NCBI RefSeq assembly: GCF_017348835.2
Contig: NZ_CP071375.1
Source: Escherichia coli
GTDB lineage: Bacteria; Pseudomonadota; Gammaproteobacteria; Enterobacterales; Enterobacteriaceae
Direction: 5' to 3' (one strand)
DNA: 64,000 nucleotides
Shown here: positions 33,601 through 39,600 of the stretch, piece after piece
How the letters are laid out: every line of letters starts with the position of its first letter
Position numbering within the stretch: the first letter of the stretch is position 1
Position numbers: made by a program

Positions 33601-36600
33601 CTACCGTCTATGTGAAAAATGCTGGAGGAAGCGGCGCGGCCACGCTAAACGGGATCGAACTCATAACTGTGAATGGCAATGAATCTCCAGCAGATGCCTT
33701 CAGACAAGGTGATGCAAGGATTGCAGCTGGAGCTTTCGAATATCAACTAAAACAACAAGGCAAAAACTGGTATTTGACAAGTTATCAGTCAGTGAATGAG
33801 GAGGATAACAGCTCAGAGGGAAATTCAGAATCAACAGAAACGCCTACCCCCGTCCTGCGCCCCGAAGCTGGAAGTTACGTCGCCAACCTGGCAGCCGCTA
33901 ACACTCTGTTTGTTATGCGTCTGAACGATCGTGCAGGTGAAACGCGCTATATCGATCCTGTAACTGAACAGGAGCGTTCAAGCCGACTTTGGCTACGTCA
34001 AATTGGCGGGCATAATGCCTGGCGTGACAGCAACGGACAGTTGAGAACGACCTCGCATCGCTACGTCTCGCAGTTAGGAGCCGATCTGTTAACCGGTGGT
34101 TTTACCGACAGTGACAGTTGGCGTTTGGGAGTGATGGCTGGTTATGCCCGCGACTACAACTCAACTCATTCCAGCGTGTCGGATTATCGTTCGAAAGGGA
34201 GTGTCAGAGGCTATAGCGCAGGGCTGTATGCCACCTGGTTTGCCGATGACATCAGTAAAAAAGGCGCATACATTGACGCCTGGGCGCAATATAGCTGGTT
34301 TAAAAACTCGGTGAAAGGGGATGAATTAGCCTATGAATCCTATAGCGCGAAAGGCGCAACCGTCTCGCTGGAAGCGGGTTACGGCTTTGCCCTGAATAAA
34401 TCCTTTGGTCTGGAAGCGGCGAAATATACGTGGATCTTCCAGCCACAGGCACAGGCTATCTGGATGGGCGTCGATCATAATGCGCACACCGAAGCCAATG
34501 GCTCACGTATTGAGAATGACGCAAATAACAACATCCAGACCCGACTTGGTTTCCGCACTTTTATTCGTACTCAGGAGAAAAACAGCGGTCCGCACGGTGA
34601 CGACTTTGAACCTTTTGTTGAAATGAACTGGATCCATAACAGTAAAGATTTTGCTGTCTCAATGAACGGTGTGAAAGTCGAACAAGACGGGGCGCGTAAT
34701 TTGGGGGAAATTAAACTTGGCGTAAATGGCAATCTGAATCCGGCGGCCAGCGTCTGGGGTAATGTGGGCGTGCAGCTGGGTGATAATGGCTACAATGACA
34801 CCGCAGTGATGGTGGGCCTGAAATATAAGTTCTGATCCCGCCGTTAGCTAAAAAACCGCGTCGAATTCATCGACGCGGTAACATATGAAATATTATTTTT
34901 TGCCGATAGCACGCATGGTGTCATCAATTGCCGTGATCAACAGCACTTGCGGGTCTTTAGCGCAAACCTGATTCAGTTTTTCTACCACTTTGGCGCTCAG
35001 TTCCGGAGATTGCTCAATTTTTAAATCACGGCTGGCAACGCTGGCATTACCCATTACCGCAACAATTTCTGCAACCTGTGCGCTGTCAGTTTTTGCCATT
35101 TCGTTGGCTTCTGCGCAAGTAATATAGGTTTCTGACGGCAAACCGTTTTTAATATTGTAGTCCTGCGCCCAGGTCATTGGTGCGAAAACAAACAGGCCCG
35201 CCAGTAAAGCAAATTTTTTCATCATCATTCCTTATTTCATTTTACCCAGAATTGCACCACCCGTACCGCCAATCACGGCACCTTTAATCGCCCCTTCGAG
35301 GCCATTGCCGGTCAGAACGCCAGTGACAGCACCAACGGCGGCACCCACTTTTGCACCTTTACGTGCATTTTTACCGTCGCGGCCTTTTTCTGTTACTGCA
35401 CCAACACCAGCGCCAACAGCTGCACCTTTCAGTACGCCATTAACACCATTGCCAGTAAGTAATCCAACGCCTGCGCCTAGCAATGCACCTTTCGTGGTGC
35501 GGTTCATATCCGCCATCGCTGGCGTGGAGCAGAACAATGCTGAGATAAGCCCGAAGGCAAGTATTTTTTTCTTCAACTTAGATGTCCGGTATTAAGTAAG
35601 TTGCACACACAATAATTTCGTCTTCAATTAAGATCTGCTTAACTAAAGAACGCTCGCTATTATTCAGATAATTCAAAATGAGCGTGGCTGTGATGATAGG
35701 AATTATGTTTTTTACGTGAATGAGAATAATCTTAAATGAGGAATAACTCATTGATTGACAATATTTTTATTCAAGAAGTGTCATTGACTGTTAACGCAAT
35801 GTTGTAAAGGTAAGATAATCTGATTTATCAATATTATTGTGTGATTTTTATGTGAGCAGAAGATATTCATCAGCAACGATTACATTAGTCATTTTATTTT
35901 GCCGACGGCCTCATTGTCGAAAGATAAGCGTACGACAGTATTATCTGAAAAGAGTGATTTTTTATCCAACTACACTTCAGCGCACTGCGTTTAAAAAATG
36001 CCGCTTTCTTATGCGGGATATCATCATTTCATCATGATGTCTTTGGTGAGCGGTGAACACAATACACCTGCGCTGTCTCTTCAGGATGAATCCCCTGGTC
36101 TGGTGCCTGCGGGCTGATGTTGCAGCAGAGCTTAGGTTACTTAGACGCTACTCAGTATTCATTTTTCAGAGGATGAAATTTATGAACAGAATCAGTCGCT
36201 ATTATTTTCACCGCTCAGTACTTTCCTTATTGATATCTGCCATGATATATGCCCCTCCCGGGATGACGGCTTTCACTTCTAATGTTATTGGCGTTGTAAA
36301 TGATGAGACTGTAGACGGCAGCCAAAGAGTAGATGAACGAGGTACAACAAATAATGCTCATATCATCAATCACGGCAATCAGGAGGTATATGGCGGGATT
36401 TCTAATGGAAGTGTTATTGATACTGGTGGACATCAAGAGGTATCTGGTCATGGCTCTTATCAGGGGCAGGCTAATAATACAGTCATTAACGGTGGCAGCC
36501 AGACAATTAGTGAGGGAGGAATTTCTACAGGGACGATAATTAACGATAAAGGAACAATGTCAGTTTTAACGAATGCTAAAGCTGATGCGACCCGAATAGA

Positions 36601-39600
36601 TAATGGCGGGGCCATGGATGTTGCCGGGAACGCGACTAATACCATAATTAATGGCGGTACACAGAATATTTATAATCATGGTATTGCTACGGGAACCAAT
36701 ATCAACAGTGGCACGCAAAATATCAAGAGCGGCGGGAAAGCTGACACAACAAATATCGCTTCCGGGAGCAAGCAGGTTGTTGAGAAAGGAGGTACGGCAA
36801 CTGGCAGCAATATTCGCGCCGGAGGTACGCTGATTGTCGATACCGGCGGTATCGCACATGGGGTTTACCTGGACACGGGGAGTGCTTTAGTTGCCAACAC
36901 GGGCGCGGGGACTGATATTGACGGATACCAGAGGTCATCTCACTTCACTATTACCGGAGGCAGGGCTGAGCATGTTGTGCTGGAAAATACCGGCGAACTG
37001 ACGGTCGTAGCTCAAACCTCGGCGGTAGATACCATCGTTGATGCTGGCGGTAAGATGATTGTCCACGAGGAGGCCGTAGCATATACCACCAGACTTAACA
37101 ATGGCGGCACACTCGATGTGCGGGAGAAAGGCAGCGCAACGGGGATACAGCAGAGTAGTCAGGGCGCGTTGGTTGCAACCACCAGGGCGACGCGTGTCAC
37201 AGGGACACGCGCTGATGGCATCGCGTTCAGCATCGAGCAGGATGCGGCGAACAATATCCTGCTGGCAAATGGCGGCGTGTTAACCGTGGAGTCAGACACC
37301 ACTTCCGCCAAAACACAGGTCAATACGGGCGGACGGGAGATCGTCAAAACAAAAGCCACTGCGACAGGCACGACGCTCACCGGCGGCGAACAAATCGTCG
37401 AGGGTGTGGCGAATGAGACAACGATTAACGACGGCGGAATACAAACAGCTTCGGCTAACGGTGAGGCAATAAAAACAACGATCAATGAAGGCGGTACGCT
37501 GACAGTCAACGATAATGGCAAAGCGACAGATATCCTCCAGAACAGCGGTGCCGCTCTCCAGACGAGCACGGCTAACGGTATTGAAATCAGCGGTACTCAC
37601 CAGTACGGCACTTTTTCCATTTCCGGAAATTTAGCGACCAATATGTTGCTGGAAAATGGCGGTAATTTATTGGTATTAGCAGGTACCGAAGCCCTTGACT
37701 CCACGGTTGGCAACGGTGGGGCAATGCAAAACCTGGGTCAGGACTCCGCCACAAAGGTTAACTCTGGCGGGCAATATACCCTTGGGCGGTCAAAAGATGA
37801 GTTTCAGGCTCTGGCCCGGGCAGAAGATCTCCAGGTCGCTGGCGGGACGGCAATCGTCTACGCAGGTACGCTGGCGGATGCATCGGTCAGTGGTGCGACA
37901 GGAAGCCTGTCGTTAATGACGCCACGGGATAATGTTACGCCAGTTAAACTCGAAGGGGCGATCCGGATTACCGATAGCGCGACATTAACTATCGGCAATG
38001 GCGTTGATACGACGCTTGCTGACCTGACGGCTGCCAGCCAGGGCAGTGTCTGGCTTAACAGCAATAATTCCTGTGCAGGTACCAGCAACTGCGAATATAG
38101 AGTAAACAGTTTGCTACTCAACGACGGTGATGTTTATTTATCAGCGCCTGCCACAACTAACGGTATCTACAATACGCTGACCACCAGTGAACTTTTCGGC
38201 AGCGGTAACTTCTACCTGCATACCAACGTTGCAGGCTCCCGGGGCGATCAACTGGTCGTCAGCAACAACGCCACTGGTAATTTTAAAATCTTTGTTCAGG
38301 ATACCGGCGTCAGCCCACAGTCTGACGACGCGATGACGCTGGTGAAAACAGGGGGAGGGGATGCTTCGTTTTCGCTGGGCAATACCGGCGGTTTCGTTGA
38401 TCTTGGGACCTATGAGTATGTCCTGAAAAGTGACGGCAACAGCAGCTGGAACCTGACCAATAATGTCAACCCAAACCCAAACCCAAACCCAAACCCAAAC
38501 CCAAACCCAAACCCAAACCCAAACCCAAACCCGACTCCCGATCCAACGCCGACACCCGTTCCGGAGAAACGCATCACGCCTTCTACGGCAGCTGTACTCA
38601 ATATGGCAGCAACATTACCGTTGGTATTTGATGCTGAGCTAAACAGTATTCGCGAGCGGTTGAACATAATGAAAGCGAGTCCACACAACAAAAATGTCTG
38701 GGGGGCGACGTATAACACCCGTAATAATGTCACCACCGATGCGGGTGCCGGGTTTGAGCAGACGCTGATCGGAATGACAGTGGGGATCGACAGCCGTAAT
38801 GATATTCCAGAAGGAATTGCCACGCTGGGCGCTTTTATGGGTTATTCCCATTCACATATCGGTTTTGATCGCGGAGGTCATGGCAGTGTGGGCAGTTATT
38901 CTCTGGGCGGCTATGCCAGTTGGGAACATGAAAGTGGTTTCTATCTGGACGGTATCGTGAAGCTGAACCGTTTTGAAAGTAACGTAGCCGGTAAAATGAG
39001 CAGCGGTGGAGCCGCCAACGGTAGTTATCACAGCAACGGGCTGGGGGGGCACATTGAAACCGGGATGCGATTTACCGATGGTAACTGGAACCTGACGCCG
39101 TATGCATCGTTAACGGGGTTCACCGCTGATAACCCCGAATATCATTTATCCAATGGCATGGAATCGAAATCAGTCGATACCCGCAGTATATATCGTGAAC
39201 TGGGTGCAACGCTGAGTTACAACATGCGTCTGGGGAACGGTATGGAAGTTGAGCCGTGGCTGAAGGCGGCTGTGCGCAAAGAATTTGTCGATGATAACCG
39301 GGTGAAAGTGAATAATGACGGTAATTTCGTCAATGATTTGTCGGGCAGACGTGGAATATACCAGGCAGGTATTAAAGCCTCATTCAGCAGTACGTTAAGC
39401 GGGCATCTCGGGGTGGGGTATAGCCATGGTGCCGGTGTGGAATCCCCGTGGAATGCGGTGGCTGGTGTGAACTGGTCGTTCTGACCATCAACGATTAAAC
39501 TGCGCTTCGGCGCAGTTTTCGTTTACAGGGGGCTAAAAGGGAAAATTCTGGGGCAAAAAAAGCCCGCCAGTTACGGCGGGAAACCTCATCCTATGGGAGA

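What the first reader, a model, noticed from the sequence alone, without database searches (positions are those of the whole stretch)
36182..39484. Intact 1100-residue autotransporter at the locus where K-12 has only a pseudogene remnant, with a (CCAAAC)10 microsatellite
The ORF has an extended autotransporter signal peptide, a long repetitive passenger, a (PN)10 linker and a complete C-terminal translocator ending in Phe. The linker is encoded by ten perfect hexanucleotide repeats, which are in-frame length-variable, so linker length may differ between strains. The K-12 comparison is from memory.
Basis: partly seen in the sequence, partly recalled or inferred. Interest (0 to 1): 0.45.

Follow-up and report, generated by a model that had tools for sequence, protein, structure and literature searches.

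The report
Intact YpjA-like adhesin, variable NP linker
This E. coli window carries a complete surface-adhesin-type autotransporter gene where K-12 and about 85% of sequenced strains keep only a 344-bp stump; it is a second copy of the known YpjA/EhaD gene, and its short repeat-encoded linker changes length between strains, which is useful to know but not surprising.

Summary
Window 36182..39484 (+) is one uninterrupted 1100-codon ORF. It has a Sec signal peptide, six AIDA repeats, a pertactin-like junction domain, an (NP)11 linker encoded by a perfect (AACCCA/CCAAAC)10 array, and a full-length beta-barrel ending NWSF.

It lies between ymgJ and minE. K-12 MG1655 has only the 344-bp pseudogene ycgI (b4521) there. 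The K-12 state is a 2987-bp deletion (window 36153..39139), and 4599 of 5426 complete E. coli genomes share its junction. Only 422 keep a near-full copy.

One claim fails: the signal peptide is an ordinary 30-residue n-h-c peptide, not an extended (ESPR) one.

- The gene is a paralogue of ypjA/ehaD. It lacks two passenger blocks (217 and 199 aa).
- The two loci have 75 fixed differences in the first 0.9 kb. In the last 2.3 kb they have none, and share 75 polymorphisms. That indicates inter-locus gene conversion.
- The NP array ranges from 8 to 37 units across strains, always in frame. An otherwise identical allele (0 SNPs) differs by exactly two units.

dN/dS of 0.14-0.19 suggests the gene is functional where it is kept. 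Adhesion or biofilm function is inferred from YpjA/EhaD, not tested. Interest is modest.

The parts
35795..36181 (+). AT-rich 5' leader and promoter region that is also duplicated upstream of ypjA. It contains the annotated small ORF ymgJ (about 35852..36037) and a 39-aa hypothetical ORF (about 35998..36117).
   Evidence: Similarity to the ypjA locus begins at query position 795/804 of window 35000-40500, at 89-91% identity. The region is 31% GC. ymgJ and the hypothetical ORF are annotated in orthologous loci. Promoter-like hexamers at 35791-35819 and 35917-35944 are consensus matches only.
36182..36271 (+). Sec signal peptide, aa 1-30, of the ordinary n-h-c type with predicted cleavage after MTA. 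It is not an ESPR.
   Evidence: There is a single hydrophobic core at aa 12-24. No ESPR Pfam hit appears at E<=10. The RBS GAGG lies 9 nt upstream. The cleavage site is inferred by eye.
36272..38101 (+). Passenger domain made of AIDA-type beta-helix repeats, aa 31-640.
   Evidence: Pfam AIDA matches in 6 stretches, E 1.1e-84. TIGR04415 strand-loop-strand repeats match in 5 stretches. PDB sequence matches are to AIDA-I family adhesin 7ko9, TibA 4q1q and Ag43 4kh3.
36182..37102 (+). Locus-specific 5' part of the gene (aa 1-307), which diverges from ypjA. ypjA carries extra blocks of 217 aa after aa 117 and 199 aa after aa 307.
   Evidence: Between-locus divergence is 12-17% against about 2% within the locus. 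There are 75 fixed differences and 5 shared polymorphisms. The protein alignment shows the two blocks.
37103..39494 (+). Tract that is homogenised with ypjA, i.e. an inter-locus gene-conversion zone. Similarity to ypjA ends 10 bp after the stop codon.
   Evidence: Between-locus divergence of 2.5-3.9% equals the within-locus value. There are 0 fixed differences and 75 shared polymorphisms in 2273 columns. The end of similarity is at query position 4495.
38102..38458 (+). Pertactin-like junction or autochaperone domain, aa 641-759.
   Evidence: Pfam Pertactin, E 8.4e-46, matches profile positions 1-120 of 121. Pertactin structure 1dab aligns to aa 640-760.
38468..38533 (+). (NP)11 linker array, aa 763-784. 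It consists of ten perfect AACCCA units (38468..38527; CCAAAC x10 in the register 38471..38530) followed by one AACCCG unit.
   Evidence: Shown. The array length is polymorphic across strains. A 0-SNP allele differs by 2 units.
38534..38563 (+). Degenerate X-P tail of the linker, TPDPTPTPVP, aa 785-794. It is conserved in both paralogues.
38633..39481 (+). Translocator, aa 818-1100: an alpha-helical linker plus a 12-strand-type beta-barrel, ending in the C-terminal beta-signal NWSF.
   Evidence: The BrkA translocator structure 3qq2 aligns at residues 2-284 of 284 to aa 818-1100. PF03797 covers aa 839-1078. TIGR01414 also matches.
36153..39139 (.). The interval that is deleted in K-12 and in most E. 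coli. Its loss leaves the 344-bp ycgI remnant.
   Evidence: BLAST of the window against a remnant locus gives breakpoints at 36152 and 39140, with 1 bp of microhomology. The same junction occurs in 4599 of 5426 genomes. MG1655 annotates ycgI as a pseudogene.

Best explanation
The feature is an intact, uncharacterised classical (type Va, AIDA-I-type) autotransporter. It sits at the ymgJ-minE (ycgI) locus of E. coli and is a paralogue of the biofilm-associated adhesin YpjA/EhaD.

Inferred mechanism: a 30-aa Sec signal takes the protein to the periplasm. The C-terminal barrel, with its terminal Phe beta-signal, inserts in the outer membrane through BAM. The roughly 730-aa beta-helical passenger is then displayed on the surface and acts as an adhesin or biofilm factor. 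Between the pertactin-like junction domain and the barrel's alpha-helix lies an X-P linker. Its (NP)n core is encoded by a hexanucleotide array that expands and contracts by replication slippage. Because the unit is 6 bp, slippage never switches the gene off. It only changes the length of the linker, an extended proline-rich spacer, from 8 to 37 NP units among strains.

The 3' 2.4 kb of the gene exchanges sequence with ypjA by gene conversion. The N-terminal (distal) 307 aa are locus-specific. Most E. coli lineages lost the gene through one 2987-bp deletion.

Shown here: the ORF, its domains, the locus, the deletion, the paralogy, the length polymorphism and the purifying selection. Inferred: secretion, surface display, the adhesion or biofilm role and the spacer role of the linker.
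For: - The ORF is intact.
- The type Va domain set is complete.
- The locus and the K-12 remnant are established.
- Prevalence: 422 near-full copies against 4599 genomes with the deletion junction, out of 5426.
- Paralogy to ypjA: about 92.5% nucleotide identity. Many of the listed genomes that carry this gene also have a second matching place elsewhere, taken to be the ypjA locus.
- Mosaic pattern: 75 fixed and 5 shared differences in the 5' part, against 0 fixed and 75 shared in the 3' part.
- NP arrays have 8, 10, 11, 13, 20, 24, 32, 32 and 37 units. All 187 units are one of four synonymous hexamers.
- 57 of 60 same-locus hits differ in span by multiples of 6.
- The window and strain F2_81 differ by 0 SNPs in 3303 bp but by 2 repeat units.
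- dN/dS among same-locus alleles is 0.14-0.19 over all three gene parts.
- YpjA/EhaD is reported to enhance biofilm formation (PMC12547504). YpjA is grouped with the biofilm-forming, self-associating autotransporters (PMC9289746).
Against: - There are no expression or phenotype data for this paralogue.
- The gene was lost in about 85% of genomes. Elsewhere it is hit by IS elements (IS1 in the signal peptide of ET201, IS1203 in O157:H7) or frameshifted (EC14). It is therefore dispensable and often decaying.
- The upstream region is AT-rich (31% GC). From my own recollection, not checked here, Roux et al. 2005 reported that K-12 ypjA is cryptic in the laboratory. The gene may therefore be silent under standard conditions.
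- The neighbouring autotransporter gene ycgH is frameshifted in this same window.
- The spacer role of the NP array is untested. The absence of non-synonymous units could reflect the spread of a few unit types by slippage rather than selection.
Confidence: 0.85

Rival explanations
1. It is simply the ypjA/ehaD orthologue placed at a different position, not a separate gene. PGAP's gene name would suggest this.
For: PGAP labels it 'ypjA: adhesin-like autotransporter YpjA/EhaD'. The 3' 2.4 kb is 95-99% identical to ypjA.
Against: - Most of the listed genomes that carry the gene have two matching places, one of them at this locus (places_in_record = 2).
- ypjA lies next to ssrA and the CP4-57 island, a different locus.
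- There are 75 fixed differences in the first 0.86 kb.
- Two passenger blocks, 416 aa in total, are absent.
- The linker composition is locus-specific in all 14 alleles examined.
Confidence: 0.03
2. It is a cryptic, decaying gene. The ORF happens to be still open in this strain, but it is not expressed or used, and the repeat variation is neutral noise.
For: - About 85% of genomes have lost the gene to a deletion.
- IS insertions and a frameshift occur in other alleles.
- The adjacent ycgH is frameshifted in this window.
- The upstream region is AT-rich.
- From my own knowledge, not tested here: K-12 autotransporters of this group are silent in laboratory culture.
Against: - dN/dS is 0.14-0.19 across the whole gene among seven divergent same-locus alleles.
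- Eight of nine sampled alleles keep a full-length ORF (3291-3465 nt). The ninth, ET201, is open but lost its first 16 codons to an IS1 insertion.
- All 187 NP units are synonymous variants.
Confidence: 0.25
3. The hexanucleotide array is a contingency (phase-variation) switch that turns the adhesin on and off.
For: It is a long perfect microsatellite inside a surface-protein gene, and it is highly mutable.
Against: - The unit is 6 bp, so slippage keeps the reading frame.
- All nine sequenced alleles are in frame.
- 57 of 60 span differences are multiples of 6.
- Of the three exceptions, D8 has an intact ORF. EC14 is annotated as frameshifted, but the frameshift was not located. H114 was not examined. 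None has been traced to the array.
Confidence: 0.02

Closest known systems
YpjA / EhaD (E. coli K-12 b2647; EHEC EhaD), an AIDA-I-type autotransporter linked to biofilm formation
   Same: - The signal peptide is nearly the same, and the repeat type, pertactin-like junction and barrel match.
- The 3' 2.4 kb is 95-99% identical at nucleotide level with no fixed differences.
- The two genes share a roughly 390-bp 5' leader.
- PGAP gives both the same name.
   Different: - The locus differs: ymgJ-minE here, the ssrA/CP4-57 edge for ypjA.
- This protein is 1100 aa against 1522-1528 aa, because passenger blocks of 217 and 199 aa are missing.
- The first 307 aa show dN 0.12 and 75 fixed nucleotide differences.
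- The linker here is pure (NP)8-37. In ypjA it is a mixed K/N/D-P linker of 39-43 aa.
ycgI (b4521), the K-12 pseudogene
   Same: It occupies the same locus and flanks. Its 344 bp correspond to the last roughly 115 codons of this gene (window 39140..39484).
   Different: K-12 lacks window 36153..39139. That interval holds the RBS, start codon, signal peptide, passenger, linker and most of the barrel.
AIDA-I, TibA and Ag43 (self-associating autotransporters)
   Same: The passenger carries AIDA-type repeats and TIGR04415 repeats. It gives PDB sequence matches at E 1e-27 to 1e-29. The type Va architecture is the same.
   Different: - It scores far below the NCBIfam equivalog cut-offs: Ag43 173 against 1200 bits, AIDA-I 158 against 1200 bits.
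- No heptosyltransferase gene is adjacent.
- Self-association was not tested.
Pertactin polymorphic repeat regions of Bordetella pertussis, (GGxxP)n and (PQP)n. This comparison rests on my own knowledge and was not checked here.
   Same: Both have a proline-rich, in-frame, repeat-number-polymorphic segment near the C-terminal end of an autotransporter passenger. This gene also contains a pertactin-like domain.
   Different: The motif here is NP, with a much larger copy-number range (8-37). No link to immune selection has been shown.

Membership tests
Classical (type Va) autotransporter, AIDA-I type | N-terminal Sec signal peptide | tested here: met
   A 30-aa n-h-c peptide with a single hydrophobic core at aa 12-24 and an A-x-A-like site, MTA|F. 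The assignment is by inspection and hydropathy; no SignalP tool was available.
Classical (type Va) autotransporter, AIDA-I type | Repetitive beta-helical passenger | tested here: met
   Pfam AIDA x6, E 1.1e-84. PDB matches to the AIDA-I, TibA and Ag43 passengers. No 3D model was made.
Classical (type Va) autotransporter, AIDA-I type | Junction or autochaperone domain before the translocator | tested here: met
   Pfam Pertactin covers aa 641-759, profile positions 1-120 of 121, E 8.4e-46.
Classical (type Va) autotransporter, AIDA-I type | Complete C-terminal beta-barrel translocator with a terminal aromatic residue | tested here: met
   PF03797 matches positions 1-254 of 255. TIGR01414 matches 5-432 of 432. 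BrkA structure 3qq2 aligns at residues 2-284 of 284. The protein ends NWSF.
Classical (type Va) autotransporter, AIDA-I type | Surface display of the passenger with an adhesion or biofilm phenotype | not testable with these tools
   This needs expression and phenotype assays.
YpjA/EhaD orthologue | High sequence identity over the full length | tested here: inconclusive
   The 3' 2.4 kb is 95-99% identical. The first 0.9 kb is only 79-91% identical (per 200-bp window), and 416 aa of passenger are absent.
YpjA/EhaD orthologue | Same chromosomal locus (edge of the ssrA/CP4-57 island) | tested here: not met
   The gene here lies between ymgJ and minE. ypjA lies by ssrA or ypjF. Most of the listed carrier genomes have two matching places.
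Extended signal peptide region (ESPR) autotransporters | A signal peptide of 42 aa or more with N1-H1-N2-H2-C organisation and the conserved ESPR motif (Pfam ESPR) | tested here: not met
   No Pfam hit appears at E<=10 for the N-terminal 70 aa, nor for the longer GTG-start reading. There is one hydrophobic core only.
Simple-sequence contingency locus (phase variation) | Repeat-number change shifts the reading frame or the promoter spacing | tested here: not met
   The unit is 6 bp and lies inside the ORF. All nine alleles are in frame, and 57 of 60 span differences are multiples of 6.
Established E. coli MLVA/VNTR typing loci (GECM-10: CVN001-017, CCR001) | The published primer pair flanks the repeat | tested here: not met
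   None of the 20 primers taken from PMC8143711 matches the window at 3 or fewer mismatches. The O157-specific MLVA loci were not tested.
Self-associating autotransporters (SAAT: AIDA-I, TibA, Ag43) | O-heptosylation-target repeats, a cognate heptosyltransferase, and self-association | tested here: inconclusive
   TIGR04415 repeats are present (5 stretches, 121.9 bits against a cut-off of 30). No glycosyltransferase gene is adjacent. Self-association cannot be tested here.

The most novel reading that the evidence does not exclude
The two-locus system (ycgI locus plus ypjA) may work as a small adhesin diversification device. Gene conversion would shuffle the proximal 2.4 kb between the paralogues, while each locus keeps its own distal tip. 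The NP hexamer array at this locus would serve as a fast, in-frame 'stalk-length dial' of 8-37 units, roughly 5 to 23 nm if fully extended. Selection would act on it to match how far the passenger projects through the strain's O-antigen or capsule layer.
Probability: 0.2. Interest if true: 0.45.

Novelty: new member of a known kind. Interest (0 to 1): 0.3.

Why it matters
- It restores the full-length form of the K-12 pseudogene ycgI. The K-12 state turns out to be one 2987-bp deletion shared by about 85% of sequenced E. coli.
- Annotation pipelines and adhesin-typing tools call this gene 'ypjA'. Presence/absence and association studies of ypjA may therefore mix two loci that are 95-99% identical over 2.4 kb.
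- The NP array is a highly discriminating in-frame VNTR that is not among the generic E. coli MLVA loci.
- The sharp switch from 75 fixed differences to none gives a clean natural example of gene conversion between adhesin paralogues.
- None of this changes how autotransporters are understood to work.

Tried and rejected
- Extended signal peptide: a Pfam scan of the N-terminus at E<=10 found nothing, and hydropathy shows one core. Rejected.
- Alternative upstream GTG start at 36053 (1143 aa): it has no RBS logic and no ESPR, and PGAP uses ATG 36182 in the orthologues. Rejected.
- Phase-variation switch: the 6-bp unit is always in frame. Rejected.
- Known MLVA locus: the GECM-10 primers are absent from the window. 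A literature search for the repeat motif together with VNTR and O157 found nothing.
- Regulatory RNA in the shared 5' leader: there is no Rfam hit at E<=1.
- Presence outside E. coli: a scan of GTDB species representatives for the back-translated PVPEKRITP motif gave only a chance hit in a Flavobacteriales MAG. This is uninformative, because the motif must match exactly and there is only one genome per species.
- Exact protein look-up: the sequence is not in the 15-billion-protein collection.
- Literature on 'ycgI': one incidental mention only, in a review that modelled the K-12 fragment as a broken barrel.
- The Pfam Trypan_PARP hit and the PDB circumsporozoite-protein hit are low-complexity matches to the NP run.
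- Structure prediction was not run. Full-length HMM matches and the BrkA alignment already settle the presence of the barrel.

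
Full report
**1. Observation**

Window 36182..39484 (+) is a single ORF of 1100 codons plus a stop. It has no internal stop and ends ...NWSF*. The ORF could be read from GTG 36053 (1143 aa). However, ATG 36182 lies 9 nt after GAGG, and NCBI's pipeline uses this start in orthologous alleles.

The tandem repeat is real and exact. AACCCA x10 spans 38468..38527, which in the other register is CCAAAC x10 at 38471..38530. TRF reports 10.8 copies at 100% match. It encodes (NP)11 at aa 763-784. The next-longest perfect microsatellite in the 64-kb window is 8 bp, so this is not a chance feature.

**2. What the protein is**

Pfam finds six AIDA repeats (E 1e-84), a full Pertactin-type junction domain (aa 641-759) and a full Autotransporter beta-domain (aa 839-1078, profile positions 1-254 of 255). 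NCBIfam TIGR01414 covers positions 5-432 of 432.

Against PDB sequences, the passenger matches an AIDA-I family adhesin, TibA and Ag43. The last 283 residues align end to end with the BrkA translocator structure 3qq2. This is a complete classical type Va autotransporter.

The one element of the finding that fails is the 'extended' signal peptide. The N-terminus MNRISRYYFHR-SVLSLLISAMIYA-PPGMTA|F is about 30 residues with one hydrophobic core. It gives no ESPR match even at E<=10.

**3. Locus and the K-12 comparison**

The gene order is ycgH-ymgD-ymgG-ymgI-ymgJ-[gene]-minE-minD-minC. MG1655 annotates a 344-bp pseudogene, ycgI (b4521), at the same place.

Aligning the window to a remnant locus shows that window 36153..39139 (2987 bp) is missing there. 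The junction has 1 bp of microhomology. The deleted interval holds the RBS, start codon, signal peptide, passenger, linker and most of the barrel.

A 120-bp query spanning that junction is matched in one piece in 4599 of 5426 complete E. coli genomes. Only 422 genomes hold 80% or more of window 35000-40500 in one place. That 422 is an upper bound for intact copies, because some are IS-disrupted or frameshifted. The intact state is therefore a minority allele, and the K-12 state is one widely shared deletion.

**4. Relationship to ypjA/ehaD**

Most genomes give a second match at about 92.5% identity over window 35795..39494. This is the ypjA locus, next to ssrA and the CP4-57 island. PGAP names both genes 'ypjA'. 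Most of the listed carrier genomes have two matching places, one of them at this locus, so they are paralogues.

K-12 YpjA (1526 aa) has two extra passenger blocks. One of 217 aa follows window aa 117, and one of 199 aa follows aa 307.

I compared nine alleles from this locus with five from the ypjA locus.

| Region | Between-locus divergence | Within this locus | Fixed differences | Shared polymorphisms |
|---|---|---|---|---|
| 36182-37102 | 12-17% | about 2% | 75 | 5 |
| 37103-39484 | 2.5-3.9% | 2.1-3.4% (segment means) | 0 | 75 |

 In several 3' segments the window's nearest relative is a ypjA-locus allele. This is the expected signature of repeated gene conversion between the loci over the proximal 2.4 kb. 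The boundary falls at the second indel block. The conversion is inferred from the pattern; no tract-detection test was run.

**5. The linker**

In nine sequenced alleles from this locus the NP run has 8, 10, 11 (this window), 13, 20, 24, 32, 32 and 37 units. All 187 units are one of AACCCA, AATCCG, AACCCG or AATCCA, which are synonymous.

Among the 60 best same-locus hits, the span of a 1.4-kb query differs by -12 to +162 bp. In 57 of 60 the difference is a multiple of 6.

Strain F2_81 has an ORF with 0 SNPs relative to the window over 3303 bp but two more hexamer units. This shows directly that the array is the fastest-changing site.

ypjA-locus linkers are mixed K/N/D-P stretches, 39-43 aa in the four alleles where the linker could be delimited. 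Because the unit is 6 bp, slippage changes length and not frame. This is not an on/off switch.

None of the 20 primers of the generic E. coli MLVA scheme (from PMC8143711) maps to the window.

**6. Is the gene functional?**

dN/dS among seven same-locus alleles is 0.14 (aa 1-307), 0.19 (aa 308-760) and 0.14 (translocator). Where the gene is kept it has evolved as a coding sequence. Between loci, the distal 307 aa show dN/dS of 0.44.

Several observations argue against importance:
- The gene is lost in about 85% of genomes.
- IS1 sits in the signal peptide of ET201. IS1203 sits at the 3' end of the NP array in O157:H7, with loss of window 38526-38733. O55:H7 keeps an intact copy.
- The allele in EC14 is frameshifted.
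- The upstream region is AT-rich, at 31% GC.

Function is inferred from the family. YpjA/EhaD is reported to enhance biofilm formation and is grouped with the biofilm-forming autotransporters (PMC12547504; PMC9289746). From my own recollection, not checked here, Roux et al. 2005 reported that K-12 ypjA is cryptic unless forced on.

**7. Mechanism**

The most likely sequence is Sec export, BAM-assisted barrel insertion, surface display of a beta-helical passenger of roughly 730 aa that mediates adhesion or biofilm formation, and an extended X-P spacer between passenger and barrel. All of these steps are inferred. The spacer's length is set by slippage of the hexamer array, and that length variation is shown directly.

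Whether spacer length matters is untested. One possibility is that it sets how far the passenger projects through O-antigen or capsule.

**8. Novelty and verdict**

No paper in the held library describes the intact gene at this locus. The exact protein is not in the 15-billion-sequence collection, but close alleles are annotated in hundreds of RefSeq genomes as YpjA/EhaD.

This is a new, uncharacterised member of a well-known kind. It adds three modest points: it supplies the full-length form of ycgI, a strongly polymorphic in-frame NP VNTR, and evidence for gene conversion with ypjA. Interest is 0.3.

Noticed in passing
window 32173..34835 (+): The neighbouring autotransporter gene ycgH carries a 1-bp frameshift relative to the intact 887-aa ycgH of strain GTEN_23 (97.7% identity, one gap). 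The longest ORF is only 721 aa, starting at GTG 32670. So ycgH is a pseudogene here, while the ycgI-locus gene is intact.
   Followed up: partly
window 36122..36136, 36152 and 36232: Breakpoints cluster just upstream of the gene in other strains. IS903B sits at about 36124-36136 in F2_81, and IS1A at 36122/36123 in 2018-05-2CC. The K-12 deletion's left end is at 36152. IS1B at 36232 in ET201 lies inside the signal-peptide codons. The first two insertions sit about 50-60 bp before the ATG and might activate a silent gene; this was not tested.
   Followed up: partly
L018 (O157:H7 strain 4276), corresponding to window 38525..38734: In O157:H7 an IS1203 (IS629-type) element sits at the 3' end of the NP array, and window 38526-38733 is missing. 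O55:H7 strain DEC5B (L015) has an intact 3381-bp gene. The gene therefore appears to have been inactivated in the O157:H7 lineage.
   Followed up: partly
window 35852..36117 (+): The annotated small genes ymgJ and an overlapping 39-aa 'hypothetical protein' lie inside the 5' leader that is duplicated upstream of ypjA. They may be leader or regulatory sequence of the autotransporter gene rather than independent genes.
   Followed up: no
window 38410..38823 (-): A 137-aa antisense ORF contains a (GF)n run. This is just the reverse-complement reading of the hexamer array, so it is an ORF-caller artefact.
   Followed up: no
L004, L011 and L013 (ypjA loci): ypjA sits directly beside ssrA (tmRNA) in SMS-3-5 and Ec-U9-2. 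In K-12 it sits beside the CP4-57 toxin-antitoxin genes. In all the ypjA loci examined a recombinase gene fragment lies upstream. The ypjA copy therefore lies at the edge of an integration hot spot.
   Followed up: no
window 38468..38533, compared with nine alleles: The arrays have internal structure. Pure runs of the AACCCA unit sit at the 5' end in the window, F2_81, VE-T9 and ET201. The 3' ends are mixed, with AATCCG, AACCCG and AATCCA units. This suggests polar expansion of one unit type.
   Followed up: partly
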